64,000 nucleotides of DNA from an uncultured Acidobacteriota bacterium (GCA_964420365.1 CAYQTA010000011.1:13031-77030); one strand, 5' to 3'. Positions 2,614-17,349 are shown, numbered from the stretch's first letter. Notes: generated by a model not told the origin, from the letters alone. Made by a program: numbers and translations.

Positions 2614-2688
2614 TGGAGGCGCCGGTCGGATTCGAACCGACGAATGAGGGTTTTGCAGACCCTTGCCTTACCACTTGGCTACGGCGCC
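2614..2688 (-). tRNA. tRNA-Cys (GCA)
   Basis: The reverse strand reads GGCGCCGTAGCCAAGTGGTAAGGCAAGGGTCTGCAAAACCCTCATTCGTCGGTTCGAATCCGACCGGCGCCTCCA: paired acceptor stem, GCA anticodon, TTCGAAT T-loop and encoded CCA. Confidence 0.97.
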
Positions 2689-4295: not shown

Positions 4296-4339
4296 CGCTC
4301 TCCCCTCGGCCCCCTTTGTGGCACCGCCCCCCTCCCCCG

Positions 4340-5077: not shown

Positions 5078-6321
5078 GCCGCGGGCCCCACCTCGAGCCG
5101 GTCCCCGGTGCCCCGCATCAGGGAAAGCATCAGGGCCAGGTGGTCCCGCACGTGGCGGGTGATCAGGAAGTTCTCCCGGACGATCCGCCGCGCCCGCTCC
5201 CCCATCTCGCGGCGCTTGTCATCCCGGTAGAGCAGGTAGCGGATCCGCAGGGCCGCTCCCTCGGGCGTCGTCACCCGGAACCCGGTGAAGTGGTCGATCA
5301 CCTGGAGCCGGATCCCGCCGGTGTCACCGCCGATGACGGGCTTCCCCTTCCACATCGCCTCGGTCACGGTCAGGCCGAAGCCTTCCCGGAGCGACTTCTG
5401 CAGGACGACGTGGGCGGCCCGCTGCAGCGCGTTGATCGTCCGGTGGGCGTTCGAGGGAAGCACCAGCACGTGCACGTCGTCGTCCCACTCCGCCGCCTTG
5501 CGCACCTCCTCGAGGACCGCCTCCCCCTCCGGGTCGTCCGCGGCGGACCCGCCCGCCAGCACGAGCTGGTGGGGCACGAACTTCCGCGCGATGCGGGACG
5601 CCTCGATGACCCCGAGCGGATCCTTGAAACGGTCGAAGCGGCTGACCTGGAGGATCATCGGCTTGCCCGGGTCGAGCCCGAACCGCTCGAACACCTGGGC
5701 GACCTCCTCCTCCGGCAGGTCCATGTTCTTCTCCGAGAGCGGGTCGATGCTCGGCGGGATCAGCACCTGCTCGTGGGGCAGCGGCTGGGCGAACTCCGGC
5801 AGGTGGAAGATGCTCGCGTCGTAGCGCGACACGATCGGCCGGAGGAACTTCCAGACCGGGCGGTACGGGTGACTGACGTCGATGTGACAGCGCCAGATCC
5901 ACTTCCCGCGCCGCCCGGGAAGGTGCTCGATCAGTGCCGCCGGCTGCGGGTCGTGGATGAAGACGATCTCGGCGTCCTCGAGCAGCTCCCCCAGCAACCC
6001 GGCATTCCGCTCGTTGACCTGCCGGTACTCCTCGAGAAGGGAGTCCGGAACGTGAACGTGCGCTCCCTGGAGCGCGTTGTGAAAGTTCTTCGTGCAGCGG
6101 AAGAACTCGTCGGTTCCCTCGATCACCTCCCACCGGGCGTCGATCCCGAGCGCCTGCATCAGGGGGATCAGCTTGTGCAGGATCTCGGCGACCCCGCCCC
6201 CCTCGCGCGTCGAGTTCACGTGGACGACGCGAACGCCCTCGAGGGGGTGGGCGAGCTGTCGCAGGTGCTCGACCGCGTCCCGGCCGGCAACCTCGGCATA
6301 CCGCTCCAGCAGGTCGCTCAT
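5074..6321 (-). CDS. treT: TreT-type trehalose glycosyltransferring synthase (GT4)
   Basis: Motifs VNSTREGGGVAEIL, HDPQP, WRCHID, QVSRFDRFKDPLG and QKSLREGFGLTVTEAMWK. ATG 6321 overlaps the upstream stop (ATGA). Confidence 0.85.
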   Translation of the reverse strand: MSDLLERYAEVAGRDAVEHLRQLAHPLEGVRVVHVNSTREGGGVAEILHKLIPLMQALGIDARWEVIEGTDEFFRCTKNFHNALQGAHVHVPDSLLEEYRQVNERNAGLLGELLEDAEIVFIHDPQPAALIEHLPGRRGKWIWRCHIDVSHPYRPVWKFLRPIVSRYDASIFHLPEFAQPLPHEQVLIPPSIDPLSEKNMDLPEEEVAQVFERFGLDPGKPMILQVSRFDRFKDPLGVIEASRIARKFVPHQLVLAGGSAADDPEGEAVLEEVRKAAEWDDDVHVLVLPSNAHRTINALQRAAHVVLQKSLREGFGLTVTEAMWKGKPVIGGDTGGIRLQVIDHFTGFRVTTPEGAALRIRYLLYRDDKRREMGERARRIVRENFLITRHVRDHLALMLSLMRGTGDRLEVGPAA

Positions 6322-6974
6322 GCCCTCACCTCCTCGAGCTCCTCGCGGAACATCTGCGCCAGTTGGCGCCGGATCTCCTGCAGGGACGAGAAGTACGGGT
6401 CGATCGCCCCGATCCGCTCCCGCAGCCCGCGGTACCGCTCTCCGAGGGGCTCGAGCCAGGTGCAGAAGTCGTCGCTGCACTGCTCGGTCCGCCGCCGGGC
6501 GTCGATGAAGTGGTAGTAGATCGCCCCCTCGGACAGGGACGGCAGGATCCGTCCGAGCTCCTCCGGGGTCTCCACCCGTACGCCCGCGTCGAACACGACG
6601 ATCCGGGAACGGAGGAAGTGGAACCGCTGGTCGGCGCGCGACCAGGGCACGTACTCGCTCTGGTCCAGGCGATCCTCGACGATGTCGAGCAGCTCCTCGC
6701 GCAGTTCCTCGAGGTCCTGGAAGTCGACGGGGTTGACGACGGCCAGCCGCTCCGCCAGCGCCTTGTCGTGCAGCCCGTGCCAGGCCCAGGCAGCGAAGTC
6801 GTTGTTGTACTCCGGCTCGTCGAACCAGGGCTGCAGCAGGCGGCCCCAGAAATGGTGGTAGATCGAGTCGACCGGGACCCGCTGGAGCCCGTCGCGGAAC
6901 TCCCGCAGGTTCTGGGCCCAGGTCCCGGTCGCGATCGTCACCAGCGCGCAGTCCCGGACGGTGAAGGGAGCCAT
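6318..6974 (-). CDS. DUF5752-family (TreT-associated) protein
   Basis: Two internal repeats (SIYHHF…NNDFAAW; AIYYHF…SDDFCTW) typical of the protein encoded beside treT. GGAGG upstream of ATG 6974. Confidence 0.75.
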   Translation of the reverse strand: MAPFTVRDCALVTIATGTWAQNLREFRDGLQRVPVDSIYHHFWGRLLQPWFDEPEYNNDFAAWAWHGLHDKALAERLAVVNPVDFQDLEELREELLDIVEDRLDQSEYVPWSRADQRFHFLRSRIVVFDAGVRVETPEELGRILPSLSEGAIYYHFIDARRRTEQCSDDFCTWLEPLGERYRGLRERIGAIDPYFSSLQEIRRQLAQMFREELEEVRA

Positions 6975-7083
6975 CTCGCACCTCCGCCTCACCGTTCAAT
7001 CTATCCCGCCACGGTTCGCGGCGGCAAGGTGGAACGCGTGCCTCGGGAAACGTCGCCGGCGCCGGAGCGGGGCGGCGCGGGAA

Positions 7084-8640
7084 TCAGCCCGGGACGCGCC
7101 AGACGGTGTCCAGGACGGTGCCGTCGACCCACTTGATGACGGCGACCGGCTCGTCGGTCAGCTCGGGCCGGGCGGGCTTGCCGCCGACGATCCGCTCCAC
7201 CTCCGCCTGGATCTCCTCGATCGGCCGGACCGGGAGGTCGGTTCCCCTCACCGCATCGAGCAGGTCCTGCCGGAGCGGGTTGATCGCGATCCCCCGCTCC
7301 GTGACGACCACGTCGACCAGCTCGGAGGGACCGGTGATCGTCGTCACCTCGTCGACGATCACCGGGATCCGGTCCCGGAACGAGGGAACGGCGAGGATCG
7401 TGCACCGGGAGAAGAGGCAGTTCTGCCAGCCGCCGATCCCGTGAAGGAGCCGGCCGTCCGAGTGGGTGACCACGTTGGCCCGGAACCGGACGTCCACCTC
7501 GGTCGCCCCGAGCACCACCGCGTCGACCATCGACGCGAAGTTTCCCTTGCCGTGGTAGTTGTACGAGGTGAACGGCGTGGTCGGGACGTGCCGCGGGTCG
7601 CTGGCGATCGAGCGGACGGCGTCCAGGTCGAAGGTCTGCCCGTCGAGGATGTAGTCGGTCAGCCCCTCCTGGAGCATCTCCACCAGGACCTTGGTCGATC
7701 CCCCCCGGACGAACCGCGCCTTGACGCCCGCCTCCCGCATCATCTCGCGCAGGAACGCGACGAAGGCGAGAGAGATGCCGCCGGCCCCGGCCTGGAACGA
7801 GAAGCCGTCCCTCATGATGCCCGCCTCGCGGATGAAGCGGGCCACCAGCTCCGCGATCCGCAACCGGTCGGGACTGCGCGTGATGCGGGTCGTGCCGGAA
7901 ACGATCTTCTCCGGGTCCCCGATCGAGTCGACCTCGACAACGTAGTCGACGTCGTTCCCGTGGATCTGCCAGGGGATGCACGGAAACGGCACCAGGTTGT
8001 CGGTGACCACGATCACGTGGTCGGCATAGATCGAGTCGGCGACGGCGAACCCGAGGGAACCGCAGGCCGAGGGCCCGTGGGCCCCGTTGGCGTTCCCGAA
8101 CGGGTCGGCGCAGGGCGCGGCGATCACCGCGATGTCGACGTGGACCTCGCCGTCCTGGATCGCCTGCCAGCGCCCGCCGTGGGAGCGGAGGACCCCGAGT
8201 CCCCGCATCTTCCCCCGCGAGCAGTAGTCTCCCAGGGGCCCGTTCATCGAGCCCTCGATGTGGTGGACGACTCCCTGCTCCATCAGGTCGATCACCGGCG
8301 CGTGGCAGGGGAAGGAGGCGCTGGGAAACCACATCAGGTCCTTCGCGCCGAGCCGGGCGGCCGCCTCGAGGGCGGCGAGGGCGACGCGGTCCCCGTTGCG
8401 CAGGTGGTGGTGGGTCGAGATCGTCATCCCGTCCCGGAGACCGCAGGCCTCGAGGGCCGCCTCGAGGGACGGCACCCGCTTGTCCCCGTCCGCCGGGTAG
8501 TCGGCGCAGGTCCGGATCGGGGGCGCGGCCTTCCTGCCTTCCGGCCGGTACTTCCCCACCCCCCGGTACGGCACCTGGGCCCTGCCGTTCACCTCCGTGG
8601 GAACCAGCCGGCCCGCCGCGTTCTTCACCATCCCGCTCAT
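7084..8640 (-). CDS. citF: Citrate lyase alpha subunit-like CoA/ACP transferase
   Basis: Motifs GLRDGMTISTHHHLRNGD, GVLRSHGGR, ACGSLGFA, FSFQAGAGG and LGATEVDVRFRANV. ATG 8640 overlaps the upstream stop. Confidence 0.88.
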   Translation of the reverse strand: MSGMVKNAAGRLVPTEVNGRAQVPYRGVGKYRPEGRKAAPPIRTCADYPADGDKRVPSLEAALEACGLRDGMTISTHHHLRNGDRVALAALEAAARLGAKDLMWFPSASFPCHAPVIDLMEQGVVHHIEGSMNGPLGDYCSRGKMRGLGVLRSHGGRWQAIQDGEVHVDIAVIAAPCADPFGNANGAHGPSACGSLGFAVADSIYADHVIVVTDNLVPFPCIPWQIHGNDVDYVVEVDSIGDPEKIVSGTTRITRSPDRLRIAELVARFIREAGIMRDGFSFQAGAGGISLAFVAFLREMMREAGVKARFVRGGSTKVLVEMLQEGLTDYILDGQTFDLDAVRSIASDPRHVPTTPFTSYNYHGKGNFASMVDAVVLGATEVDVRFRANVVTHSDGRLLHGIGGWQNCLFSRCTILAVPSFRDRIPVIVDEVTTITGPSELVDVVVTERGIAINPLRQDLLDAVRGTDLPVRPIEEIQAEVERIVGGKPARPELTDEPVAVIKWVDGTVLDTVWRVPG

Positions 8641-9824
8641 GCGTCGTCTCCCAGGAGGCCCATCGCCCGGGCCCGCTCCACGAGCTTGAGTGCCCGCTCG
8701 ACGACGGGCGGATCGATCATCTTGCTGCCGAGGCTGACGACGCCGAGCCCCCTCGCCTGCGCGTCTTCGAAGGCCGCGACGATCTTCCGGGCCCTCTCGA
8801 TCTCGGCGGCGGAGGGGGCGAACGCCTCGTGGATCACCGGGACCTGCCGCGGATGGACCGCCCCCATTCCCTCGAAGCCGATCGCCCGGGCCCGCTCGCC
8901 CCACGCCCGGAGGCCGTCCATGTCGGCGACGTTCCCGTAGACCGAGTCGATCGCCTGGATGCCCGCCGCCTTGGCGGCATTGACGAGGCGCAGCCGGGCC
9001 CAGAGGCTCTCCTCGCCCCCCGGCGTCTTCACGACCCCGAGGTCGGCCGTGTAGTCCTCGAGCCCGATCGTCAGCGCACAGACCCGCTCCGAGGCGGTCG
9101 CGATCTCGAACGCCCGCTCGATCCCGAGGGCCGACTCGAGGATCGGCATCAGCCAGACGTCCCGGTCGGGCAGGATCCGCCGGATCGCGGCGTCCACCTC
9201 GCGGACCTGCTCGGCGGACTCGACCTTCGGGACCAGCACCAGGTCCGGCCGTTCCGGGATCACCTCCCGCAGGTCCTCGAGTCCCAGCGGGAGCTGGTTG
9301 ATCCGCACCATCCGCTCGGCCCCGCCGAAGTCGATCGCCCGCAGGGCGTTGCGCACCAGGAGCCGGGCCGCGTCCTTCTCCGCCGGGTGCACGGAGTCCT
9401 CGAGGTCGAGGATCAGGCCGTCCGCCCCGTGGAGCCCGGCGTTCGGGAAGTACTTCGGCTCGTTGCCCGGGAGGTAGAGCCGGGACCGGCGCAGCCGGTC
9501 CCGGGGCGACGGGGGGGGCAGGGGGAGCCCCCCGGGGAGGTGCCGCTTCCCCTCGCCGAGGCCCGCCCGGCGCACCGCCGCCTCGATCCGGGCCGCGATG
9601 ACGAACGGCAGGGCTCCCCGGTCGTCGATCTCGAGCCGACCGGCGGTGACCCCCAGGTCCGCGAGAACCCGCCGCGCCTGCTCCTCGATCGCCGTGCCGT
9701 ACCAGGTGGCGACCTTCGACCGCAGCTCGATGCGGAGACCGTCCCCGCCCGGCTCGAAGCGGACGAACAGGTCCGAGCGAACCCCATCGCCCCGGCGGCC
9801 GGCCTCTCCCGCGCGCTCGCCCAT
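8637..9824 (-). CDS. CitD (ACP-like)-CitE (citryl-CoA lyase family) fusion
   Basis: The N-terminal ~90 aa are CitD-like (RSDLFV…IELRSKV…YG.AI…IDDRGALPFVIAARIEAAV). The CitE domain follows: RRSRLYLPGN, ILDLEDSV, RMVRIN, ILESALG, GLEDYTADLG, HPRQ. Confidence 0.85.
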   Translation of the reverse strand: MGERAGEAGRRGDGVRSDLFVRFEPGGDGLRIELRSKVATWYGTAIEEQARRVLADLGVTAGRLEIDDRGALPFVIAARIEAAVRRAGLGEGKRHLPGGLPLPPPSPRDRLRRSRLYLPGNEPKYFPNAGLHGADGLILDLEDSVHPAEKDAARLLVRNALRAIDFGGAERMVRINQLPLGLEDLREVIPERPDLVLVPKVESAEQVREVDAAIRRILPDRDVWLMPILESALGIERAFEIATASERVCALTIGLEDYTADLGVVKTPGGEESLWARLRLVNAAKAAGIQAIDSVYGNVADMDGLRAWGERARAIGFEGMGAVHPRQVPVIHEAFAPSAAEIERARKIVAAFEDAQARGLGVVSLGSKMIDPPVVERALKLVERARAMGLLGDDA

Positions 9825-9835
9825 GGTTTCCTCGC

Positions 9836-11020
9836 TCACAGGTTGGCGATGATCGCGTCCGTCATCTGCGTCGTCGTGGCCGCTCCCCGGGAGATCGCGT
9901 CCGGGCCACCCGGGATCTTCATCATGTCGTAGGTGCGGACCTTCCCCTCCGCGATCACGGCCGCGATCGCCTCGCGCACCCGCCTCGCCTTCTCCTCCTC
10001 GCCCACGTGGTCGAGCAGCATCGCGGCGGAGAGGATCATCGCGATCGGGTTGACGATCGGGGGGTCGAGCTCGGCGTACTTCGGCGCGGACCCGTGGGTC
10101 GGCTCGAACACCGCGACCTCGTCCCCGATGTTCCCCGAGCAGGCGAACCCGAGCCCGCCGACCAGCCCGGCAAAGGCGTCGGAAACGATGTCGCCGAACA
10201 GGTTGCCGGCGACGATCACGCCGTAGTCCTCCGGGTTCTTCGTCAGCCACATCATCTGGGCGTCGATGTTCGTCGACCAGAGCTCGATCTCCGGGAAGTC
10301 CTTCCGCACCTCGCGCGCGACCTCCTCCATCATGCCGGAGGTCTCGCGCAGCACGTTCGGCTTCTCGCAGACCGTCACCGACCGGTACCCGTGCTTCTTC
10401 GCGTACTGGAAGGCCGCGGTGAGGATCCGGCGGCAGGCACGCCGGGTGAAGATCCGAACGGAAAGGGCCAGGTCCTCGCCGGGAACGTCCTTGAAGCGCT
10501 CGAACTTGGGATGCGTCTCGAGCGCCTTGCGGACCACCTCCGGCGGATCGGTCCACTCGACGCCCGCGTAGAGCCCCTCGGTGTTCTGCCGGAAGATCAC
10601 GGCGTCCACCGGCGGCTCCTCGAACCCGCCGTCGGGGGTCCGCCGGATGAAGTTCAGCGGGTTCCCCCTGAACGACCGGCAGGGCCGGATGCAGACGTCG
10701 AGGTTGAACCGCTGCCGCATCCCGACGATCGGGGAGAAGTAGACGTATCCCCTGTCGCGCAGGGAGGGATCGAGTTCCTTCGCCGCCTCGGCCTTGGGCT
10801 TGCTCGTGATCGCCCCGAAGAGTCCCAGCTTGTGCTCGGCGAGCAGCTCGACGGTCCGCTCCGGGAGGGGATTCCCCTCCTTCACCCAGAACTCCCAGCC
10901 GATGTCCGCGTGCACGTACTCGGCATCGAAGCCGACCGCGTCGAGGACGCGGATCGCCTCCGGCAGCACGGTCTTGCCGATCCCGTCGCCGGGCATCGCC
11001 ACCACGGTGTACTTCGCCAT
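9836..11020 (-). CDS. Isocitrate/isopropylmalate/homoisocitrate dehydrogenase family protein
   Basis: Motifs PGDGIG, GAITS, SPIVGMR, NTEGLY, KPNVL, NLFGDIVSD and FEPTHGSAPKYA. Confidence 0.9.
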   Translation of the reverse strand: MAKYTVVAMPGDGIGKTVLPEAIRVLDAVGFDAEYVHADIGWEFWVKEGNPLPERTVELLAEHKLGLFGAITSKPKAEAAKELDPSLRDRGYVYFSPIVGMRQRFNLDVCIRPCRSFRGNPLNFIRRTPDGGFEEPPVDAVIFRQNTEGLYAGVEWTDPPEVVRKALETHPKFERFKDVPGEDLALSVRIFTRRACRRILTAAFQYAKKHGYRSVTVCEKPNVLRETSGMMEEVAREVRKDFPEIELWSTNIDAQMMWLTKNPEDYGVIVAGNLFGDIVSDAFAGLVGGLGFACSGNIGDEVAVFEPTHGSAPKYAELDPPIVNPIAMILSAAMLLDHVGEEEKARRVREAIAAVIAEGKVRTYDMMKIPGGPDAISRGAATTTQMTDAIIANL

Positions 11021-11024
11021 CGTC

Positions 11025-12983
11025 TCACCCCTCCTGGTTCCCGCCCGCGGCGAGCTTCTGTTTCACGAGGTTCTCCACCCCGCCCGCGACGACCAGCGCC
11101 TGGGGCACCTCCGACAGGGCGGGGAACGGCCACTCCTTCCCGTCCCAGCGGATGACGCCCGCGGCGAAGTCGACCTCGATCTCCTCGCCGGGGACGATCG
11201 TCCGCTCGCCGGCCGCGACCCGGTCCGCGAACCGCTCCCGGAGGGCGGCGACCAGGTCGGGCTGGACGATGCAGGCGAAGCCGTTGTTGAACGCGTTCCT
11301 CAGGTACGTCTGGGAGAAACCGGCCGCGATCACCAGCGCGATCCCCTTCGCCTGCAGCGCGGTGACCGCCTGCTCGCGGCTCGACCCGGTGCCGAAGTTG
11401 AACCCGCCGACGAGGACGTCTCCCTCGCGGGTCTTCGCCGCGAACTCCGGGTCGTAGTTCTCCATCACGACCCGGGCCATCTCCTCCCGGGTCATGTCCT
11501 CGCGGTAGGTGTAGTCCTTTCCGTAGATGCCGTCGGTGTTGAGGTTGTCCTGCGGCAGGAAGACCAGCCGCCCGCGGACCCGCTCCGGGAACCCCGGGAG
11601 GATCTCCACCCTCGCCGGCTCCCGGGCCGGTTCCTCGAACTGCTCGATCCGCCGGGCCGGTTCCCGCGCGTCCCACTCGCCGGGGCCGGTGATCTTCCCG
11701 GCCAGCGCCGAGGCAGCGACGACGGCAGGACTCGCCAGGTAGCAGCGGGCGTCCCGGGACCCCATCCGGCCCTTGAAGTTCCGGTTGGTCGCCGAGATGC
11801 CGACCTCCCCCGCCTCGAGGAGCCCCACCCCGAGCCCGATGCAGGGGCCGCAGGCGGGGGGCAGCATCACGGCGCCCGCCTCCTTGAGAATGCGCCAGGT
11901 CCCACGGCGCTCCGCCTCCGCCTGGATCTCCCGGCTGGCCGCGGCGACGTACAACCGTGCCCTCGCCCTCTTCCCGGCCAGGACCCGCGCCGCCGCCTCC
12001 AGGTCCTCGAGGCGGGAGTTCACGCACGAAAGGATGTAGGCCCGGTCGACGGGAATCTCCTGCCGGGCGACTTCAGGCAGCGGCGCCCCGGCCTGGACGG
12101 TGTCCGGGCCGGCCACGTGGGGCACGACCTCCCCGAGGTCGAGGACGATCCGGGCCGCGTAGCGGGCATCCGGGTCGGGCGCCGGGGGATCCTCTTCCCA
12201 CCGGTCGATGTCGTCCGCGGAGAACGGCCGCCGCCCGGTCGCCTCGAGCACGGCGAGCCGCTCCCGGAACCAGGCGATCGTCCGCCCGTCCACCGGGAAC
12301 CAGCCGGTGAGAGCACCCCACTCGGTCGTCATGTTGGCGATCGTCATCCGGGCATCGATCGAGAGCTCGGCGACCCCCGGCCCCGCGAACTCGACGGCGG
12401 CGTTCAGCGCCTCCCCCTCCCGGTACAGCCGGCAGAGGGCGAGGATCACGTCCTTGCCGGTGACGCCCTCCCGGAGCTTCCCCTCGAGGACGACCTGGAC
12501 GGTCCGCGGCACCTGCCACCAGGTCTCCCCGGAGGCCCAGATCGCGGCCGCGTCGGTCCGCACGACCGGCGTGCCGAGGGCACCGACCGCCCCGTACATG
12601 TTCGAGTGGCTGTCCGACGCGACGACCAGGGCGCCGGGAGTGACGTACCCCTGCTCCAGCATCACCTGGTGGCCGATGCCGGTGCCCGCCGGCCAGAAGT
12701 CGATCCCCTGTTCCCGGGCGAACGCCTCGATCGATGCGTACTTGGCCAGGTTCTTCGCCGACACGTTCTGGATGTCGTGATCGAGGGCGAAGACCGGCTG
12801 CCGGGGATCGTGGACCCGGGGGATGCCGAGTCCCCGGAACTTCTTCATCACCGCGGCCGTGTTGTCGTGGGTCATCACGTGCTTCGGGCGCACGGTGACG
12901 AAGTCGCCGGCGCGCACCTCCCGGTCCCGCGGACCGGAGGTCATGTGCGCCTGGGCGATCTTCTCGGCAATCGTCTGGCCCAT
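11025..12983 (-). CDS. Single-chain homoaconitase-like hydratase (fungal Lys4/LysF type; large and swivel domains fused)
   Basis: Motifs HVMTHDN, LDHDIQN, GIGHQVM, ASDSHSNMYG, RTDAAAIWASGETWWQVP; Fe-S cysteines in SCVNSR and ACGPCIG; C-terminal DNLNTDGIY…MENYDPEF…NFGTGSSREQA. Confidence 0.85.
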   Translation of the reverse strand: MGQTIAEKIAQAHMTSGPRDREVRAGDFVTVRPKHVMTHDNTAAVMKKFRGLGIPRVHDPRQPVFALDHDIQNVSAKNLAKYASIEAFAREQGIDFWPAGTGIGHQVMLEQGYVTPGALVVASDSHSNMYGAVGALGTPVVRTDAAAIWASGETWWQVPRTVQVVLEGKLREGVTGKDVILALCRLYREGEALNAAVEFAGPGVAELSIDARMTIANMTTEWGALTGWFPVDGRTIAWFRERLAVLEATGRRPFSADDIDRWEEDPPAPDPDARYAARIVLDLGEVVPHVAGPDTVQAGAPLPEVARQEIPVDRAYILSCVNSRLEDLEAAARVLAGKRARARLYVAAASREIQAEAERRGTWRILKEAGAVMLPPACGPCIGLGVGLLEAGEVGISATNRNFKGRMGSRDARCYLASPAVVAASALAGKITGPGEWDAREPARRIEQFEEPAREPARVEILPGFPERVRGRLVFLPQDNLNTDGIYGKDYTYREDMTREEMARVVMENYDPEFAAKTREGDVLVGGFNFGTGSSREQAVTALQAKGIALVIAAGFSQTYLRNAFNNGFACIVQPDLVAALRERFADRVAAGERTIVPGEEIEVDFAAGVIRWDGKEWPFPALSEVPQALVVAGGVENLVKQKLAAGGNQEG

Positions 12984-12997
12984 CACGGCCTCCCGGC

Positions 12998-14371
12998 TCA
13001 GGCGTCCTTCGCGCAGAGCGCCATCAGCTCGGTGATCGAGCCGAGGTTCTCCAGGTTCCAGACGGCCTCCTTCAGCCTCGCGCGCCGCTCCTCCGAGAGC
13101 ACCGGGGCCGCGAGGGCGTCGAACTTCGCCTCGATCTCCTCGTCCGAGAGCGGGTTGCGCGGGTCGCCCTTGGGATAGTCGAGCTGCTTCTCGTAGCGCT
13201 GCCCGTCGACCGTCTCGATGGTGACGTGGACCCGCTGCAGCTCGGGAAAGACCTTCTCGATCTCCGGGTCGGCGAGGACTTCCACCTTGTGGAGCTGTTC
13301 CCGGATCACCGGGTCCATGATGCGCTCCGGCGTGAAGGCCGCAGGGGTCACGTTCCGGTCGACCAGGGCCGCGGCGATCACGTACGGCAGCGAGTGGTCC
13401 GCCGTTTCCTTGCTCCGCGGGTCGTACTTGCTCGGGTCGGCAAGGATGTCGGCGGCACGGGCGAGAGAGCGGATGATCACCTTCTTCACTCGCTCCGGTG
13501 CCAGGTCGTGCTCCCGCACCAGGTCGAGGACGGCGGAGATCGGCGTATGGGTCAGCGCCTCGGTCGGAAACGCCTTCATCCCGCAGCGGGTGATCCGCCA
13601 CGACTCTCCCAGCCCCTCGACCAGGATGTCCAGCTTCCACTCCGGCCCGAGGCAGTGGACCAGCCCCTCCTTGCCGTCGATCACGTGCTCCGGCCCCGTG
13701 TAGCCCTTCTCCGCCAGGAGGGCCGCCAGCACGCCGGACTGGGTGGCCAGCGGGTCGACGGTGTTCTTCATCATCGTCAGCTTGCCGGCGGTCACCGCGC
13801 CCAGGGTGGCGTGGCGGCTGCCGGAGATACCGATCGCGTGCTGGATCTTCTCCCAGTCCAGGTGAAGCATCCGCCCCGCGACGATCGGCGCGGCGAACGC
13901 GGTCAGCGTCGCGTGGTGCCAGCCCCGTTCCCGGATCCCCGGGAACGCGATCTCGCACAGCCGCATCTCGAACTCGTGTCCGAGCACGATCCCGACGATC
14001 AGCTCCTTTCCGTCTCCCCCGGCCCGCTCGCCGCACGCCATCGCCGCCGGGATGATGTCCGAGGGATGGGACGGGTCCTGCTGCCAGTAGATGTCGTTGT
14101 AGTCCATCACCCGGACCATCAGGGCGTTCGCCAGCGAGGCCGAGACCGGGTCGAGCCGCTTCCCGGTCCCGATCACCGTGGCCGGCCCCTCCCCGGCGCA
14201 CTCCTCGAGGACGCCGAGGGCGATCTCGACGTCGTGCTTGGTGTACCCCCCGAGGGCACACCCGAGGGAATCGAGGAGGAAGCGCTTCGCCTCCCGGACG
14301 GCCTCCGGGGACAGGTCGTCGAACCTGAGGTCGGCGGCCCAGCGGGCCATCTTCTCGGTGATCGTGCTCAT
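12998..14371 (-). CDS. MmgE/PrpD-family dehydratase
   Basis: Motifs LLDSLGCALG, RVMDYNDIY…HPSD, RGWHHAT, KAFPTEALTH, ETADHSLPY and PKGDPRNPLSDEEIEAKF. ATGA overlap with the upstream gene. Confidence 0.9.
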   Translation of the reverse strand: MSTITEKMARWAADLRFDDLSPEAVREAKRFLLDSLGCALGGYTKHDVEIALGVLEECAGEGPATVIGTGKRLDPVSASLANALMVRVMDYNDIYWQQDPSHPSDIIPAAMACGERAGGDGKELIVGIVLGHEFEMRLCEIAFPGIRERGWHHATLTAFAAPIVAGRMLHLDWEKIQHAIGISGSRHATLGAVTAGKLTMMKNTVDPLATQSGVLAALLAEKGYTGPEHVIDGKEGLVHCLGPEWKLDILVEGLGESWRITRCGMKAFPTEALTHTPISAVLDLVREHDLAPERVKKVIIRSLARAADILADPSKYDPRSKETADHSLPYVIAAALVDRNVTPAAFTPERIMDPVIREQLHKVEVLADPEIEKVFPELQRVHVTIETVDGQRYEKQLDYPKGDPRNPLSDEEIEAKFDALAAPVLSEERRARLKEAVWNLENLGSITELMALCAKDA

Positions 14372-14910
14372 CGCAGGCTCTCCTTGAAGGGCAGGAAGCT
14401 CATGAAGTCCGCGTGGTGGACGATCGTCGCCTCGACGCTGCGCTTCACCATGTTTCCCTCGCCGGCGTGCGCGGCGATGACGTGGCACACCGCGTCGGGC
14501 ACGCCGCACTCCATGGCGAGGGCCACGCCGGTGAACGGGTGCCGCAGGTACTTCCCGCGCATGCTCTGCCGGGCCTCGCCCTCCACGATCTCGTACTCGA
14601 GGAGCTTGCCGACGTCGGCGAGGATCGCCCCCGCGATCACGACGTCCATGTCGATCGGCAGCGACTTCCCCATGAACTCCCGCATCGCCTCGGCGGACCT
14701 CCGGGCGATGTGGACCACGCAGCGCTTGTGTTCCATGAAGGTGACCGGGCAGTCCGGCACGAGCAGCGTGAACGGGATCCGCTCGAGGTCCTCCGGGGCC
14801 AGCGGACTTCTCTCGAGGGCAAGCTCCCATGTTCGCTCGACTTTTGCCCGCAGGTCGGAGTCGGAGATCCACTCCAGCTCGGGCCACAGGCGGCGGACGG
14901 CGTCGCTCAT
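14368..14910 (-). CDS. HD-superfamily (HDIG-like) protein with HD replaced by AD
   Basis: Motifs MEH(61)KRCV, GAILA(98)D(99)VGKLLEY, RHPFTG, IAAHAGEG and IVHHAD. First gene of the operon. Confidence 0.75.
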   Translation of the reverse strand: MSDAVRRLWPELEWISDSDLRAKVERTWELALERSPLAPEDLERIPFTLLVPDCPVTFMEHKRCVVHIARRSAEAMREFMGKSLPIDMDVVIAGAILADVGKLLEYEIVEGEARQSMRGKYLRHPFTGVALAMECGVPDAVCHVIAAHAGEGNMVKRSVEATIVHHADFMSFLPFKESLR

Positions 14911-14976
14911 CGCGGGTTCTCCTTCCGGTTGTGGCCGGTAAGATTACCCGGCCCGCATCCCGGAGGCCAAGGCTCG

Positions 14977-15594
14977 ATGACCCGGATCCCCCCCCACCAC
15001 CCGAGGAACTTCCTCTTCGACCTGTCCGCGCCCGCCTGGGACGTCCTGATGGGCCGCTGGGCGCTGCGCGACGTCCTCCGGCGGCTGGGCCCCGGGCGCG
15101 GCAGGCGGGTCCTCGACCTCGGCGGGGCGACCGGACGCCTGTCCGTGCACCTGGCCCGCCTGGGGATGCGCCCGGTTGTGCTCGATCCGTCCCTCCCGAT
15201 GGTTCGCCGGGCCCGGAGACGGGGCCTCGCCGCCGTGGCCGGCTCGGCCCATGCCCTGCCCTTCCGGGACGGCGCGTTCGACGCGGTGATCGTCCTCGAC
15301 GCCCTGCACCACGTGTCCGACATCCCCCGGAGCCTCGGGGAGGCCGCCCGCGTCCTCGAGCCCGGGGGCCGGCTGCTGCTCCACGAGCCGGATCCCGAGA
15401 CGGCCATGGGACGGCTGACGGCGGTGCTGGAACGCCTCGCGGGGATGGGCAGCCTGCTCCTGCCGGCGGCGACCCTCGAGGCCCTCCTCCGGGAGGCGGG
15501 CCTCGAGGTGGTCCTCGTCGAGCGAAGGCGCTTCCATCTCGAGATCGAGGCCGGGAAACCGGGCCCCGGACCTCCCCGGCCGCCTAGAGGGTGA
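14977..15594 (+). CDS. Class I SAM-dependent methyltransferase
   Basis: Motifs VLDLGGATG, AHALPFRDGAFDAV and VLEPGGRLLL. GGAGG upstream of ATG 14977. Confidence 0.8.
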   Translation: MTRIPPHHPRNFLFDLSAPAWDVLMGRWALRDVLRRLGPGRGRRVLDLGGATGRLSVHLARLGMRPVVLDPSLPMVRRARRRGLAAVAGSAHALPFRDGAFDAVIVLDALHHVSDIPRSLGEAARVLEPGGRLLLHEPDPETAMGRLTAVLERLAGMGSLLLPAATLEALLREAGLEVVLVERRRFHLEIEAGKPGPGPPRPPRG

Positions 15595-15955
15595 ACGCCC
15601 CCCGGACGTGGTGGACGCGGAGCCTCCCCTCGCCGACGCGCACCGCAACGACGTCGAAACGGCAGGGCCGGTCCGCCCCGCCGTGGCGGCGAAGCCAGGC
15701 GACCGCCGCCCGGGCGATCCGGGCCTGCTTGCGGGGTCCCACCGACGCCTCGGGCGACCAGGGGCTGCCCTCGCGCCGGGAACGGACCTCCACGAAGACG
15801 AGGGTCTCCCCCTCGCGGGCGACGATGTCGATCTCGCCCCCCCTGGTGCGGAAGTTCCGGGCCAGGACGATGAATCCGCGCCGCGCGAGCCACGCCGCGA
15901 CCCGCTCCTCGACGGCCCGCCCCCGGCGAACCCGGTCGTCTCCCGGGCGCGTCAC
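15584..15955 (-). CDS. yraN: YraN (UPF0102) family protein
   Basis: Motifs GRAVEERVAAWL…ARNFRTRGGEIDIVAREGETLVFVEVRSR…CRFDVVAV. The GTG start overlaps the cysS stop. Confidence 0.88.
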   Translation of the reverse strand: MTRPGDDRVRRGRAVEERVAAWLARRGFIVLARNFRTRGGEIDIVAREGETLVFVEVRSRREGSPWSPEASVGPRKQARIARAAVAWLRRHGGADRPCRFDVVAVRVGEGRLRVHHVRGAFTL

Positions 15956-17349
15956 CGCCGCTTGAGCCGCGCCCCCCGGGGGGTGTCCTCGACGACCCAG
16001 CCGCGCGCCAGGATCTCGTCCCGCAGGCGGTCCGCCTCGGCCCAGTTCCGTTCCTTCCGGGCGCGGGTCCGGGCCTCGAGCAGTTCGAGCACCTCGGGGG
16101 GCGCCTCCTCGCGCCGTTCCTCGAAGGGGAACAGGGCGCCGACCACCCGGTCGGCCTCCCGCAGGAAGCCGAGCACGACTTCCGCGTCCTCCCGGGAGAC
16201 CTCGCCCCGGTCGAGGCCGGCGTTGACCTCGCGGACCAGCTTGAAGATCTCCCCCATCGCCCCGGAGATGTTCAGGTCGTCGTCCAGGGCCTCGCCGAAC
16301 GCCTCCCGCGCGGCACGCACCCGGTCGTTCCAACGGGCCTCGCCCGCCGACCCCGTCGCCTCCCGCTCGAGCCGCTCGACCAGGTCGTCCACGCGCGAGA
16401 GCTCGGCCCGGGCCTGGTCGAGGGCCTCGAACGAGAAGTTCAGCGGTCGACGATAGTGGGTGCCGAGCAGGACGTAGCGGATGTAGCGCGGATCGTGGCC
16501 CCGCTCCAGCAGGTCGCGCAGGGTGTAGAAGTTGCCGAGGGACTTCGACATCTTCTCCCCGTCGACCACCAGGTGGGCGCAGTGGAGCCAGTAGCGGACG
16601 AACTGCTTCCCCGTCGCTCCCTCCGACTGGGCGATCTCGTTCTCGTGGTGGGGGAACTTGTTGTCGACCCCACCGGTGTGAATGTCGAACGTTTCCCCGA
16701 GGTACTTCATCGACATCGCCGAGCACTCGATGTGCCAGCCCGGCCGCCCCGGCCCCCAGGGCGAGTCCCAGCTCGGTTCGCCCTCCCGGTGCGCCTTCCA
16801 GAGGACGAAATCCGCCGGGTCGTCCTTCGTGTACTCGTCCGCATCCACCCGGGCACCGACGAGAAGCTTGTCCCGGTCGAGCCCCGCGAGCTTGCCGTAG
16901 CCGGGGAAGCTGGCGATCCGGAAGTAGACGGATCCACCCGAGACGTAGGTGTGACCACGCTCCTCCAGGCGCCGGATCAGGTCGATCATCTCCGCGACGT
17001 GCTCGGTGGCCCGCGGGTAGTGGTGCGCCGGCTCGATGTGCAGGGCGCGGACGTCCTCGAAGAACGCCTCCGTGTAACGGGCCGTGTACTCGCGGATGTC
17101 GACCCCGGCCTCGTTGGCCTTCCGGATGATCTTGTCCTCCACGTCCGTGATGTTCATCACGTGAAGGACCTCGTAGCCCCGCCACTCGAGGTGCCGCCGG
17201 AGCAGGTCTTCCCAGGTGTACGCCCGGAAGTTCCCGATGTGGGCGAAGTCGTGCACCGTCGGGCCGCAGGTATAGAGCCCGACCTTACCTGCGACGAGCG
17301 GGTGGAACTCGTCCACCCGCTTCGTCATCGAGTTGTAGTAGCGGATCAT
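15952..17349 (-). CDS. cysS: Cysteine--tRNA ligase
   Basis: Motifs YTCGPTV, HIGNFR, GRPGWHIECSAMS, DIHTGG…FPHHENEIAQS and KMSKSLGN. Confidence 0.97.
   Translation of the reverse strand: MIRYYNSMTKRVDEFHPLVAGKVGLYTCGPTVHDFAHIGNFRAYTWEDLLRRHLEWRGYEVLHVMNITDVEDKIIRKANEAGVDIREYTARYTEAFFEDVRALHIEPAHHYPRATEHVAEMIDLIRRLEERGHTYVSGGSVYFRIASFPGYGKLAGLDRDKLLVGARVDADEYTKDDPADFVLWKAHREGEPSWDSPWGPGRPGWHIECSAMSMKYLGETFDIHTGGVDNKFPHHENEIAQSEGATGKQFVRYWLHCAHLVVDGEKMSKSLGNFYTLRDLLERGHDPRYIRYVLLGTHYRRPLNFSFEALDQARAELSRVDDLVERLEREATGSAGEARWNDRVRAAREAFGEALDDDLNISGAMGEIFKLVREVNAGLDRGEVSREDAEVVLGFLREADRVVGALFPFEERREEAPPEVLELLEARTRARKERNWAEADRLRDEILARGWVVEDTPRGARLKRR

What the first reader, a model, noticed from the sequence alone, without database searches (positions are those of the whole stretch)
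7084..14910. Candidate undescribed pathway: citrate-lyase-based homocitrate/2-oxoadipate operon
Seen: six co-oriented genes with overlapping or 4-14 nt junctions: HD(AD) protein, PrpD, fungal-type homoaconitase, beta-decarboxylating dehydrogenase, CitD-CitE fusion, CitF. There is no citC, citG, citX, citrate/homocitrate synthase or methylisocitrate lyase. Known: PrpD dehydrates a tricarboxylate to an aconitate analogue, Lys4/LysF interconverts homoaconitate and homoisocitrate, this dehydrogenase family interconverts (homo)isocitrate and a 2-oxoacid plus CO2, and CitF plus CitE activate and retro-Claisen cleave citrate. Inference: the set forms one reversible chain, acetyl-CoA + 2-oxoglutarate <-> homocitryl-CoA <-> homocitrate <-> homoaconitate <-> homoisocitrate <-> 2-oxoadipate + CO2. 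Run forward it would enter alpha-aminoadipate lysine synthesis without homocitrate synthase. Run in reverse it would be a CO2-fixing route for 2-oxoadipate (Lys/Trp) catabolism. A C6 version (citrate/2-oxoglutarate, a split-aconitase TCA or rTCA branch) is the main alternative. I know of no described pathway with this gene set.
Basis: partly seen in the sequence, partly recalled or inferred. Interest (0 to 1): 0.88.

Follow-up and report, generated by a model that had tools for sequence, protein, structure and literature searches.

The report
Candidate reverse aminoadipate (homocitrate lyase) operon
Six tightly packed genes, conserved in several bacterial phyla, most likely convert the lysine breakdown product 2-oxoadipate into 2-oxoglutarate plus acetate by running the fungal lysine-synthesis steps backwards and ending with a citrate-lyase-like cleavage, a route I could not find described.

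Summary
Six co-oriented minus-strand genes (7084-14910) have junctions of -4, 14, 4, 11 and -4 nt. They encode an HD(AD) protein, an MmgE/PrpD-family protein, a Lys4-type homoaconitase, an Iso_dh dehydrogenase, a CitD-CitE fusion and CitF.

The module recurs in Acidobacteriota, Gemmatimonadota and Melioribacteraceae, and in rearranged form in several uncultured lineages. Of 40 well-flanked genome loci, 30 carry the whole module.

Several results favour C7 substrates over C6:
- The homoaconitase passes the fungal homoaconitase equivalog cutoff.
- The dehydrogenase lacks IDH Asn115 and carries the YxSPIV loop of S. pombe homoisocitrate dehydrogenase.
- In at least five different arrangements, relatives sit next to lysine-catabolic genes.

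These neighbours, a lyase in place of a synthase, and adjacent permeases favour the catabolic direction: 2-oxoadipate + CO2 + NADPH -> homoisocitrate -> cis-homoaconitate -> homocitrate -> acetate + 2-oxoglutarate.

Two hydro-lyase slots show non-orthologous displacement: PrpD-like or Acn1, and Lys4-like or HacAB-like.

No citC, citG or citX lies near any locus. The role of the HD protein is unknown. Nothing has been tested biochemically, and eight literature searches found no description.

The parts
14368..14910 (-). HD(AD)-domain protein, 180 aa. First gene of the operon; role unknown.
   Evidence: PF01966 and TIGR00277 HDIG. The HD dyad is A98-D99, with invariant H61, H67, D99, H124, H143, H148, H165, H166 and D168. 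The AF2 model has pLDDT 90.8, but Foldseek finds only generic HD folds, the best being YhaM at E 4e-5 and TM 0.65. The family has at least 8000 90%-identity clusters, the listed ones 77-97% identical. In relatives the gene usually lies directly after the Iso_dh gene.
12998..14371 (-). MmgE/PrpD-family hydro-lyase, 457 aa ('slot A'). Inferred to interconvert homocitrate and cis-homoaconitate.
   Evidence: PF03972 + PF19305. Far below the PrpD equivalog cutoffs. Closest solved structures are IDS-epimerase (146 bits) and IRG1/CAD; true PrpD gives only 50-60 bits. It is mutually exclusive with a fused aconitase-family protein 'Acn1' in otherwise equivalent clusters.
11025..12983 (-). Lys4-type (fused large + small domain) homoaconitase, 652 aa ('slot B'). 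Inferred to interconvert homoisocitrate and cis-homoaconitate.
   Evidence: TIGR00139 homoaconitase equivalog scores 729.2 bits against a 529.9-bit cutoff. Fe-S ligands C320, C378 and C381 are invariant in 47/47 sequences. The swivel-domain loop NTDxIYGK(D)YTY is shared with the split HacAB/LeuCD-like proteins that replace it in other clusters (PGKYTY).
9836..11020 (-). Beta-decarboxylating dehydrogenase, 394 aa. Inferred to be an NADP(H)-dependent homoisocitrate dehydrogenase acting as a 2-oxoadipate reductive carboxylase.
   Evidence: PF00180. The best NCBIfam hits are the AksF2 and AksF homoisocitrate DH models (below cutoff), and the best PDB hits are Thermus HICDH. All catalytic Arg, Tyr, Lys and Asp residues align with E. 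coli IDH. The substrate loop Y94-x-S-P-I-V-x-x-R102 is invariant in 55/55 sequences. It matches S. pombe HICDH 'YSSPIVALR' and replaces IDH Asn115 with Ile. The cofactor signature is APKY and Y..K/R, equivalent to E. coli IDH K344/Y345/Y391/R395.
8637..9824 (-). CitD (acyl-carrier) - CitE (lyase beta) fusion, 395 aa. Inferred to be a homocitryl-S-ACP lyase giving acetyl-S-ACP + 2-oxoglutarate.
   Evidence: PF06857 at residues 17-87 and PF03328 at residues 113-325. citE scores 260.8 bits against a 443.4-bit cutoff. Identity to E. coli is 39% for CitE and 32% for CitD. Ser17, which aligns with the prosthetic-group Ser14 of E. coli CitD (site identity from memory), is conserved in 71/75 sequences. 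The fusion is found in all 160 loci of the two scans.
7084..8640 (-). CitF-type acyl-ACP:carboxylate transferase, 518 aa. Inferred to act as acetyl-S-ACP:homocitrate transferase releasing acetate.
   Evidence: PF04223. TIGR01584 scores 495.1 bits against a 501.45-bit cutoff. 39% identical to E. coli CitF. Closest structures are 2HJ0 and 1XR4. It always follows the CitD-CitE gene; in the window the two overlap by 4 nt.

Best explanation
The operon encodes a self-contained catabolic module that shortens 2-oxoadipate, the common intermediate of lysine (and probably hydroxylysine and tryptophan) breakdown, to 2-oxoglutarate plus acetate. It does this by running the upper alpha-aminoadipate pathway backwards.

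Inferred steps:
1. The Iso_dh enzyme uses NADPH and CO2 to reductively carboxylate 2-oxoadipate to homoisocitrate.
2. The Lys4-type Fe-S homoaconitase dehydrates homoisocitrate to cis-homoaconitate.
3. The PrpD-family enzyme hydrates cis-homoaconitate to homocitrate.
4. CitF exchanges homocitrate onto the acetylated thiol of the CitD domain and releases acetate.
5. The fused CitE domain cleaves homocitryl-S-ACP into 2-oxoglutarate and acetyl-S-ACP, which closes the lyase cycle.

Together with a 2-aminoadipate transaminase, the net reaction is 2-aminoadipate + CO2 + NADPH -> glutamate + acetate.

Shown computationally: gene order, family membership, conserved catalytic and prosthetic-group residues, cross-phylum synteny, and the neighbours in related loci. 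Inferred: all substrates, the direction, and the ACP-bound cycle. The HD protein is a conserved accessory of unknown role.
For: Conservation:
- 30 of 40 well-flanked genome loci carry the complete module, and 28 have the identical order.
- Carriers include Terriglobia, Gemmatimonadota and the cultured Rosettibacter primus.
- Rearranged but complete sets occur in a MAG named Ca. Tenebribacter davisii (its close homologues are mostly named Cloacimonetes), in TA06, Ca. Vecturithrix, Anaerolineales and Bacteroidales.

C7 specificity:
- The homoaconitase passes the TIGR00139 cutoff.
- The dehydrogenase's best family and PDB hits are homoisocitrate dehydrogenases.
- IDH Asn115 is replaced by an invariant Ile, and the loop equals S. 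pombe HICDH 'YSSPIV'.
- A library-wide search separates 'SP[IV]x' relatives from 'RSVNV' IDH-type relatives.

Link to lysine catabolism and direction:
- L078 carries an L-piperideine-6-carboxylate dehydrogenase (the family NCBIfam spells 'L-piperidine-6-carboxylate dehydrogenase'), 787.7 bits against a 730-bit cutoff, plus Sacchrp_dh directly after the module.
- L073 carries Sacchrp_dh, the same ALDH (64% identical), LysR, and a class-III aminotransferase abutting CitDE.
- L090 has the full module followed by the ALDH (75% identical) and AlaDh_PNT.
- L113, L165, L166, L168 and L171 have Sacchrp_dh-AlaDh_PNT-CitDE-CitF, followed in L165 by Iso_dh, HD, two aconitase-family genes and an amino-acid permease.
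- L173 has TrmB-AlaDh_PNT-Sacchrp_dh-module-Aminotran_4.
- The two energy-coupled, direction-setting fungal steps (homocitrate synthase, Lys2 reductase) are replaced by a lyase and an NAD(P)+ aldehyde dehydrogenase.
- Transporters (CstA, MFS, AA_permease, SBP_bac_5) accompany the module.
- The NADP-type signature fits a reductive step.

Two-enzyme isomerisation:
- Slot A (PrpD-like or Acn1) and slot B (Lys4-like, split HacAB-like, or Acn2) occur in five of the six possible combinations. Fungal Lys4 is known to catalyse only the second half-reaction (established knowledge).
Against: - No activity has been measured.
- The window itself and the Terriglobia and Gemmatimonadota loci carry no lysine-catabolic neighbours, so the link rests on orthology to other lineages.
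- The dehydrogenase is overall no closer to fungal HICDH (146 bits) than to IDH (156 bits). Only the substrate loop is fungal-like, and that loop also occurs in uncharacterised relatives.
- NADP-dependent IDH runs oxidatively in E. coli, so the cofactor type does not fix the direction.
- CitF sits almost at the citrate-lyase equivalog cutoff.
- Many relatives carry CitDE-CitF alone: 13 of 17 well-flanked metagenome loci.
- One locus pairs CitDE-CitF with a malic-enzyme gene, as in citrate fermentation (L063).
- Four Gemmatimonadota loci lack a slot-A gene nearby.
- No CitC, CitG or CitX is found near any locus, although the prosthetic-group serine is conserved.
Confidence: 0.55

Rival explanations
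1. Forward, biosynthetic direction. The lyase condenses acetyl-S-ACP with 2-oxoglutarate to homocitrate, and the chain delivers 2-oxoadipate for alpha-aminoadipate-type lysine synthesis without a homocitrate synthase.
For: Lys4-type and Lys12-loop-type enzymes are biosynthetic in fungi. Sacchrp_dh and AlaDh_PNT neighbours belong to the Lys9 and Lys1 families that finish fungal lysine synthesis. An AMP-binding enzyme lies upstream in L113.
Against: Citrate-lyase-type reactions have no thioester hydrolysis to drive condensation, and in known systems they act as cleavage enzymes (established knowledge). Three loci carry an L-piperideine-6-carboxylate dehydrogenase, a catabolic enzyme, instead of an aminoadipate reductase. 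A LysR regulator, a GabT-type transaminase, amino-acid permeases and peptide-binding proteins are typical of catabolic operons. No LysW/X/Z/Y/J/K, Lys2-like or synthase gene was found in any locus examined.
Confidence: 0.1
2. C6 version. The genes form a split-aconitase citrate/isocitrate/2-oxoglutarate branch with a true citrate lyase. This would serve either citrate use, or reductive carboxylation of 2-oxoglutarate to citrate followed by cleavage to acetate + oxaloacetate.
For: CitF scores 495.1 bits against the 501.45-bit citrate-lyase cutoff. In L063 the same CitDE-CitF pair sits beside a malic-enzyme/PTA gene, and malic-enzyme-family oxaloacetate decarboxylases accompany citrate lyase in lactic acid bacteria (the latter from knowledge). 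The dehydrogenase has an IDH-like clasp region and NADP signature. E. coli PrpD can dehydrate citrate (knowledge).
Against: The isocitrate gamma-carboxylate ligand Asn115 is replaced by an invariant Ile. The hydratase passes the homoaconitase cutoff, not an aconitase cutoff. CitE is far below its equivalog cutoff. The lysine-catabolic neighbours have no role in a C6 scheme. No citrate transporter, citC, citG or citX was seen in any locus.
Confidence: 0.1
3. The same chemistry acts on another 2-oxoacid homologue. Examples are 2-oxopimelate/homo2-citrate, citramalate/2-oxobutyrate, 2-methylcitrate, or an environmental alkyl- or hydroxy-citrate. Alternatively the PrpD-family member acts as a decarboxylase or epimerase rather than a hydratase.
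For: The PrpD-family protein is closest to IDS-epimerase and cis-aconitate decarboxylases. The dehydrogenase's top models (AksF, AksF2) belong to enzymes that accept several chain lengths (knowledge). The SPIV-type loop also occurs in uncharacterised relatives. Citramalate lyase is a known CitDEF homologue (knowledge).
Against: The neighbours point specifically to 2-aminoadipate and 2-oxoadipate. Replacement of the PrpD-like gene by an aconitase-family hydro-lyase argues for a (de)hydration. A CAD-type decarboxylation is chemically impossible on cis-homoaconitate (inference).
Confidence: 0.1

Closest known systems
Citrate lyase CitDEF (EC 4.1.3.6; Klebsiella, E. coli) and citramalate lyase of Clostridium tetanomorphum
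   Same: Homologous alpha (CitF), beta (CitE) and gamma (CitD) parts. The prosthetic-group serine is conserved. The expected two-step cycle is acyl exchange on acetyl-S-ACP followed by retro-Claisen cleavage. It is used for breakdown.
   Different: CitD and CitE are fused. CitE and CitD fall below their equivalog cutoffs. No citC, citX or citG, and no citrate carrier or oxaloacetate decarboxylase, are linked. Partner genes and context indicate homocitrate, not citrate or citramalate, as substrate. A homocitrate lyase was not found in eight literature searches.
Upper alpha-aminoadipate pathway of fungi (Lys20/21, Aco2 + Lys4, Lys12) and of Thermus
   Same: Same intermediates. The homoaconitase is Lys4-type (equivalog passed). 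The dehydrogenase carries the fungal Lys12-type substrate loop. The isomerisation is split between two enzymes, as with fungal Aco2 + Lys4.
   Different: Homocitrate synthase is replaced by an ACP-dependent lyase. The first hydro-lyase is a PrpD-family (or second HacA-like) protein instead of aconitase. The dehydrogenase has an NADP signature. The inferred flux runs in the opposite, catabolic direction.
Known fates of 2-oxoadipate in lysine catabolism: 2-oxoadipate dehydrogenase to glutaryl-CoA, and HglS/YdcJ oxygenase to 2-hydroxyglutarate (Pseudomonas putida, plants; PMC7286885, bioRxiv 10.1101/450254)
   Same: Same entry metabolite. Like the HglS route, it ends in 2-oxoglutarate. Related loci show the same upstream saccharopine / piperideine-6-carboxylate steps.
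   Different: It needs neither CoA esters nor O2. It incorporates CO2 and releases acetate. The enzyme families are entirely different.
Methylcitrate cycle PrpD + AcnB, and reductive carboxylation by NADP-isocitrate dehydrogenase in the reductive TCA cycle
   Same: An Fe-S-independent MmgE/PrpD dehydratase is paired with an aconitase-family hydratase to isomerise a tricarboxylate. An NADP-type beta-decarboxylating dehydrogenase is proposed to run in the carboxylating direction.
   Different: The substrates are one carbon longer. There is no methylcitrate synthase or methylisocitrate lyase. The PrpD-family member is only distantly related to PrpD.

Membership tests
Citrate lyase complex CitDEF | Alpha, beta and gamma subunits all present | tested here: met
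   CitF (PF04223), CitE (PF03328) and CitD (PF06857) were all found, with CitD fused to CitE.
Citrate lyase complex CitDEF | NCBIfam equivalog cutoffs for citF, citE and citD | tested here: not met
   citF 495.1 bits against 501.45, citE 260.8 against 443.4, citD 56.1 against 63.5.
Citrate lyase complex CitDEF | Serine that carries the 2'-(5''-phosphoribosyl)-3'-dephospho-CoA prosthetic group | tested here: met
   Ser17 aligns with E. coli CitD Ser14 (site identity from memory) and is conserved in 71/75 fusion proteins. Actual modification was not testable.
Citrate lyase complex CitDEF | Linked activation genes citC, citX and citG | tested here: not met
   No tblastn hit with the E. coli proteins in the window or in the 160 loci of the two scans (E<=0.01, E<=1e-8). 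No such Pfam family appears among the called genes of ten further contigs. Presence elsewhere in these genomes could not be tested.
Citrate lyase complex CitDEF | Citrate as substrate | not testable with these tools
   Needs an enzyme assay. Context argues for homocitrate.
Fungal-type homoaconitase (Lys4, TIGR00139) | Equivalog score above the curated cutoff, with large and small domains fused | tested here: met
   729.2 bits against 529.9. Aconitase + Aconitase_C in one 652-aa protein.
Fungal-type homoaconitase (Lys4, TIGR00139) | Three cysteine ligands of the 4Fe-4S cluster | tested here: met
   C320, C378 and C381 are invariant in 47/47 sequences.
Homoisocitrate dehydrogenase | Catalytic Tyr/Lys, three metal-binding Asp, and three substrate Arg of the beta-decarboxylating dehydrogenases | tested here: met
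   All align with E. coli IDH R119, R129, R153, Y160, K230, D283, D307 and D311.
Homoisocitrate dehydrogenase | Substrate loop of a characterised HICDH | tested here: met
   The invariant YxSPIVxxR matches S. pombe 3TY3 'YSSPIVALR'. It differs from Thermus HICDH 'GAIR85YLR'.
Homoisocitrate dehydrogenase | NCBIfam HICDH equivalog cutoffs; NAD-type 'APDI' cofactor motif | tested here: not met
   AksF2 271 bits against 540 and AksF 261.7 against 500. The motif is APKY, as in NADP-dependent IDH.
Isocitrate dehydrogenase | Ser113 and Asn115 that bind the isocitrate gamma-carboxylate | tested here: not met
   Ser is present but Asn115 is replaced by Ile98, invariant in 55/55 sequences. All IDH equivalog cutoffs are missed.
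2-Methylcitrate dehydratase PrpD | PrpD equivalog score and prpB/prpC context | tested here: not met
   101.6 bits against 950 and 68.8 against 458. The nearest structures are IDS-epimerase and IRG1. No prpB or prpC in the window.
Saccharopine / piperideine-6-carboxylate route of lysine catabolism (as the upstream feeder) | LKR (AlaDh_PNT), SDH (Sacchrp_dh) and P6C/AASA dehydrogenase genes adjacent to the module | tested here: inconclusive
   Met in related loci L073, L078, L090, L113, L165, L166, L168, L171 and L173. Not met in the window or in the Terriglobia and Gemmatimonadota loci.

The most novel reading that the evidence does not exclude
The module is the core of a complete, CoA-independent and O2-independent 'reverse alpha-aminoadipate pathway' (lysine -> saccharopine -> 2-aminoadipate -> 2-oxoadipate -> homocitrate -> 2-oxoglutarate + acetate). 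This pathway would share ancestry with the fungal lysine-biosynthesis enzymes Lys1, Lys9, Lys12 and Lys4. Its homocitrate lyase would be primed or regulated by a system different from CitC/CitX/CitG, in which the invariant HD(AD) protein takes part. An HD-family enzyme acting on an acyl-carrier prosthetic group has a precedent in AcpH (from memory).
Probability: 0.15. Interest if true: 0.9.

Novelty: new variant of a known kind. Interest (0 to 1): 0.78.

Why it matters
If correct, this would be a third route for disposing of 2-oxoadipate, alongside 2-oxoadipate dehydrogenase and the HglS oxygenase. It would also supply the first homocitrate lyase, a PrpD-family homocitrate/homoaconitate hydro-lyase, and an NADP-type homoisocitrate dehydrogenase that works as a carboxylase. 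The genes are abundant: at least 8000 90%-identity clusters for two of the proteins, in soil Acidobacteriota and Gemmatimonadota and in uncultured lineages such as Cloacimonadota and Bacteroidales. Automatic annotation that labels them citrate lyase, aconitase and IDH would therefore misassign lysine and amino-acid carbon flow in metagenome models. The pathway fixes one CO2 per lysine and needs neither CoA esters nor oxygen, which is of interest for anaerobic amino-acid degradation and for engineering C6/C7 dicarboxylate routes. Bacterial operons containing Lys1-, Lys9-, Lys12- and Lys4-like genes also bear on the unresolved origin of the fungal aminoadipate pathway. A cultured carrier, Rosettibacter primus, makes the hypothesis directly testable.

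Tried and rejected
- Flank analysis of the first 80 loci by all-against-all ORF clustering found no gene family, other than the six, conserved next to the Terriglobia and Gemmatimonadota clusters.
- The stand-alone CitDE-CitF loci have only housekeeping neighbours: DAG kinase, sulfatase, MscS, RecQ, OTCase and SpoU.
- tblastn with E. coli CitC, CitX and CitG found nothing.
- Rfam at gathering threshold found no riboswitch near the operon or in seven lysine-linked loci, only one tRNA in the window.
- Sigma-70 promoter and intrinsic terminator scans of 6200-16000 found nothing.
- For the HD protein, the PDB sequence search gave only YedJ at E 0.29, and Foldseek on a confident model gave only generic HD folds. 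No function could be assigned.
- A CAD-like decarboxylase role for the PrpD-family protein was considered and rejected, because the gene is replaced by aconitase-family hydro-lyases and the chemistry does not fit a C7 substrate.
- An itaconate or citramalate degradation reading was rejected for lack of a hydratase and of any supporting neighbours (RipC model 177.7 bits against 375).
- An early guess that the window was actinomycete or a secondary-metabolite locus was dropped after sigma-54, TonB-type and Acidobacteria-MAG matches.
- In the PrpD-less Gemmatimonadota loci I looked for a substitute dehydratase. I found only a formiminotransferase-cyclodeaminase downstream and, in one locus, PntB upstream.
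- Eight literature searches found no description of the pathway.

Full report
**Observation.** The window is about 72% G+C, so raw ORF lists are cluttered. Third-position GC framing and start-codon inspection resolve six minus-strand genes between 7084 and 14910:
- HD protein, 14368-14910
- MmgE/PrpD-family protein, 12998-14371
- aconitase-family protein, 11025-12983
- Iso_dh protein, 9836-11020
- CitD-CitE fusion, 8637-9824
- CitF, 7084-8640

Each has an ATG start preceded by a GGAG-like motif. Pfam and NCBIfam confirm the families. The rest of the window is ordinary chromosome of a Gram-negative, sigma-54-using bacterium. The nearest relatives of the locus are Acidobacteria MAGs, 95% and 91% identical for CitDE. 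Upstream lies a divergent methyltransferase and cysS. Downstream, after a 91-nt gap, lies a trehalose-synthesis cluster. In the closest longer relative, L002, that cluster is separated from CitF by about 2.9 kb, so it is not part of the operon.

**What the genes are.**
- The aconitase-family protein passes the curated equivalog cutoff of the fungal homoaconitase model TIGR00139 (729.2 bits against 529.9). It keeps the three Fe-S cysteines, which are invariant in 47 of 47 sequences.
- The dehydrogenase matches homoisocitrate dehydrogenase models best (AksF2, AksF), and Thermus HICDH structures best, but passes no curated cutoff.
- The 'PrpD' is only a distant family member. Its closest solved structures are IDS-epimerase and IRG1/cis-aconitate decarboxylases, with true PrpD at 50-60 bits.
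- CitF is close to canonical: 495.1 bits against a 501.45-bit cutoff, and 39% identity to E. coli. The CitE and CitD domains are divergent.
- The HD protein has A98-D99 in place of the HD dyad.

**Conservation.** A scan of one genome per GTDB species with the CitD-CitE fusion returned 80 loci. Among the 40 loci with enough flank, 30 contain the full module, and 28 loci have the same six-gene order as the window. They come from Terriglobia and other Acidobacteriota and from Gemmatimonadota. Melioribacteraceae, including the cultured Rosettibacter primus, carry a rearranged version with a CstA transporter inserted. A metagenome scan and contig look-ups add complete but differently ordered sets. 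These come from a MAG named Ca. Tenebribacter davisii (whose close homologues are mostly named Cloacimonetes), from TA06, Ca. Vecturithrix, Anaerolineales and Bacteroidales. No further gene family is conserved beside the Terriglobia and Gemmatimonadota clusters.

**C7 versus C6.** Three independent lines favour homo-tricarboxylates.
- First, the homoaconitase equivalog result described above.
- Second, the dehydrogenase substrate loop. Aligned with E. coli IDH, the family keeps Ser113 but replaces Asn115, a ligand of the isocitrate gamma-carboxylate (established knowledge), with an invariant Ile. The loop Y-x-S-P-I-V-x-x-R matches the loop of S. pombe homoisocitrate dehydrogenase 3TY3 (YSSPIVALR). 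It differs from IDH (RSLNVALR), from Thermus HICDH (GAIRYLR) and from LeuB. An exhaustive search of 1.84 billion representatives shows that relatives split into 'SP[IV]x' and IDH-type 'RSVNV' loops. The former group also contains uncharacterised proteins, so this is supportive rather than diagnostic.
- Third, genomic context in relatives, described next.

**Context and direction.** In at least five differently organised loci the module abuts lysine-catabolic genes.
- L078 (Bacteroidales): CitDE-CitF-Iso_dh-HD, two aconitase-family genes, then an aldehyde dehydrogenase that passes the L-piperideine-6-carboxylate dehydrogenase equivalog (787.7 bits against 730), then a Sacchrp_dh protein.
- L073 (Desulfuromusa): Sacchrp_dh, the same ALDH (64% identical), a LysR regulator, and a GabT-type class-III aminotransferase ending 10 nt before CitDE.
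- L090: the full module, followed by the ALDH (75% identical) and an AlaDh_PNT gene.
- L113, L165, L166, L168 and L171: Sacchrp_dh-AlaDh_PNT-CitDE-CitF. In L165 these are followed by Iso_dh, HD, two aconitase-family genes and an amino-acid permease.
- L173: TrmB-AlaDh_PNT-Sacchrp_dh-CitDE-CitF-Iso_dh-GFO-HD-Aminotran_4.
- L167 (Ca. Vecturithrix): an Ldh_2 gene follows the module. This is the family of piperideine-2-carboxylate reductase, so the clue is weaker.

AlaDh_PNT and Sacchrp_dh are the families of lysine-ketoglutarate reductase and saccharopine dehydrogenase. Together with the P6C dehydrogenase they make 2-aminoadipate, and its transamination gives 2-oxoadipate (established knowledge). 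Compared with fungal lysine biosynthesis, the two energy-coupled, direction-setting steps are the ones that differ. Homocitrate synthase is replaced by a lyase, and the ATP/NADPH-dependent aminoadipate reductase by an aldehyde dehydrogenase. Transporters and regulators typical of catabolic operons accompany the module. The dehydrogenase carries the NADP signature APKY plus Y..K/R, equivalent to E. coli IDH K344/Y345/Y391/R395. Thermus HICDH and LeuB have APDI. This fits an NADPH-driven reductive carboxylation but does not prove it.

**Two hydro-lyase slots.** Across loci, the PrpD-like gene is mutually exclusive with a fused HacA-like protein, 'Acn1'. The Lys4-like gene is interchangeable with a split HacAB/LeuCD-like pair or a fused 'Acn2'. 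Observed combinations:
- PrpD + Lys4-like (most loci)
- PrpD + split pair (L086, L121, L170)
- Acn1 + Acn2 (L078, L165, L167, L168, L169, L174)
- Acn1 + split pair (L096)
- Acn1 + Lys4-like (L107)

Slot-B proteins share the swivel-domain loop (P/G)GK(D)YTY, while Acn1 has HNxYL(T/S). This is the pattern expected if one enzyme handles homocitrate <-> cis-homoaconitate and the other cis-homoaconitate <-> homoisocitrate. It matches the established fact that Lys4-type and Thermus homoaconitases catalyse only the second half-reaction.

**The lyase.** CitD is fused to CitE in every locus of the two scans. Ser17 aligns with the prosthetic-group Ser14 of E. coli CitD (site identity from memory) and is conserved in 71 of 75 sequences. 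A thiol-carrying prosthetic group and an acetyl-S-ACP cycle are therefore expected. Yet no CitC, CitX or CitG homologue lies in the window, in the 160 loci of the two scans, or among the called genes of ten further contigs. How the carrier is primed and acetylated is unknown.

**The HD protein.** It is 65-80% identical across most phyla, falling to 37-50% in some lineages. It belongs to a family of at least 8000 90%-identity clusters. It most often follows the dehydrogenase gene directly. A confident model (pLDDT 90.8) matches only generic HD folds. I cannot assign a role. Priming, repair or deacylation of the carrier domain, or regulation of the dehydrogenase, are speculations.

**Proposed mechanism** (all substrates inferred):
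1. 2-oxoadipate + CO2 + NADPH -> homoisocitrate (Iso_dh)
2. homoisocitrate -> cis-homoaconitate (Lys4-type enzyme)
3. cis-homoaconitate -> homocitrate (PrpD-like enzyme)
4. homocitrate + acetyl-S-ACP -> homocitryl-S-ACP + acetate (CitF)
5. homocitryl-S-ACP -> 2-oxoglutarate + acetyl-S-ACP (CitE domain)

By analogy with the C6 reactions, carboxylation is mildly endergonic, isomerisation towards the tertiary alcohol is favourable, and lyase cleavage of one molecule into two is favoured at millimolar concentrations. The sequence should therefore be feasible; this is inference. Coupled to a transaminase, the net reaction is 2-aminoadipate + CO2 + NADPH -> glutamate + acetate, and the 2-oxoglutarate consumed by the transaminase is regenerated.

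**Caveats.**
- The window and its closest relatives have no lysine genes nearby.
- Of 17 well-flanked metagenome loci, 13 carry CitDE-CitF alone.
- L063 pairs CitDE-CitF with a malic-enzyme gene and may be a citrate/oxaloacetate version.
- Four Gemmatimonadota loci lack a slot-A gene locally.
- Overall, the dehydrogenase is no closer to fungal HICDH than to IDH.
- Whole genomes could not be examined. The presence of citCXG, canonical aconitase and IDH, homocitrate synthase, the DAP pathway or glutaryl-CoA dehydrogenase in carriers is untested.

**Novelty.** Eight full-text searches returned no description of the cluster or pathway. Search terms included homocitrate lyase; citrate lyase with homoaconitase or PrpD; reductive carboxylation of 2-oxoadipate; lysine catabolism with homocitrate; and citrate lyase with saccharopine dehydrogenase. 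The retrieved literature on 2-oxoadipate describes only the dehydrogenase route and the HglS oxygenase route (PMC7286885; bioRxiv 10.1101/450254). All parts belong to known enzyme families. I therefore rate this a new variant of a known kind: a citrate/citramalate-lyase-type system joined to a reversed 2-oxoacid elongation module. My confidence in the catabolic C7 reading is about 0.55.

Noticed in passing
window 2790-6992 (-): A trehalose cluster with overlapping junctions: OtsA (GT20), trehalose-phosphatase, a TreT-like GT4 synthase, and a DUF5752 protein translationally coupled to TreT. DUF5752 has no known function.
   Followed up: no
window 30310-32136 (+): An amidase with an N-terminal GatC domain (608 aa), apparently a GatC-GatA-like fusion. 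It lies between proteins with no Pfam match and a cell-wall amidase.
   Followed up: no
window 34389-41359 (+): Two adjacent giant proteins (1064 and 1259 aa) with TPR, DUF3857 and transglutaminase-core domains, followed by a DUF697 protein.
   Followed up: no
window 2617-2688 (-): A single tRNA gene, the only Rfam match in the window at gathering threshold.
   Followed up: no
window 52346-53026 (+): Dephospho-CoA kinase coaE lies 37 kb from the operon. The citrate-lyase prosthetic group derives from dephospho-CoA, but this is most likely coincidence.
   Followed up: no
L105, L108, L119, L127 (downstream of CitDE): Tandem duplicated CitF genes follow a single CitD-CitE gene. This suggests two transferases with different acyl-acceptor specificities sharing one lyase.
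   Followed up: no
L146 5726-9879; also L100 and L142: A methylmalonyl/glutaconyl-CoA-type Na+-translocating decarboxylase operon lies immediately upstream of CitDE-CitF. It comprises an epimerase-like Glyoxalase_4, Carboxyl_trans, OAD_gamma, a biotin carrier and OAD_beta. Iso_dh-HD form a separate pair behind an M20 peptidase gene.
   Followed up: partly
L168 11239-11852; L165 16820-17179: Small selfish-looking inserts sit inside the operon. A nucleotidyltransferase/HepT toxin-antitoxin pair lies between CitDE and CitF, and a 23S_rRNA_IVP gene lies between the two aconitase-family genes.
   Followed up: no
L042 12820-14640; L052 9392-11317; L051 3106-4482: In Gemmatimonadota clusters that lack the PrpD-like gene, a formiminotransferase-cyclodeaminase follows CitF; this enzyme belongs to histidine catabolism and produces glutamate. 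In L051, which lacks the FTCD, NAD(P) transhydrogenase PntB lies upstream.
   Followed up: partly
proteins P0260, P0264, P0267, P0268, P0270: Relatives of the dehydrogenase, about 40-44% identical and with an 'SPVIQLR' loop, are fused to a C-terminal domain of about 350 aa that I did not identify (715-740 aa in total). This is an uncharacterised architecture.
   Followed up: no
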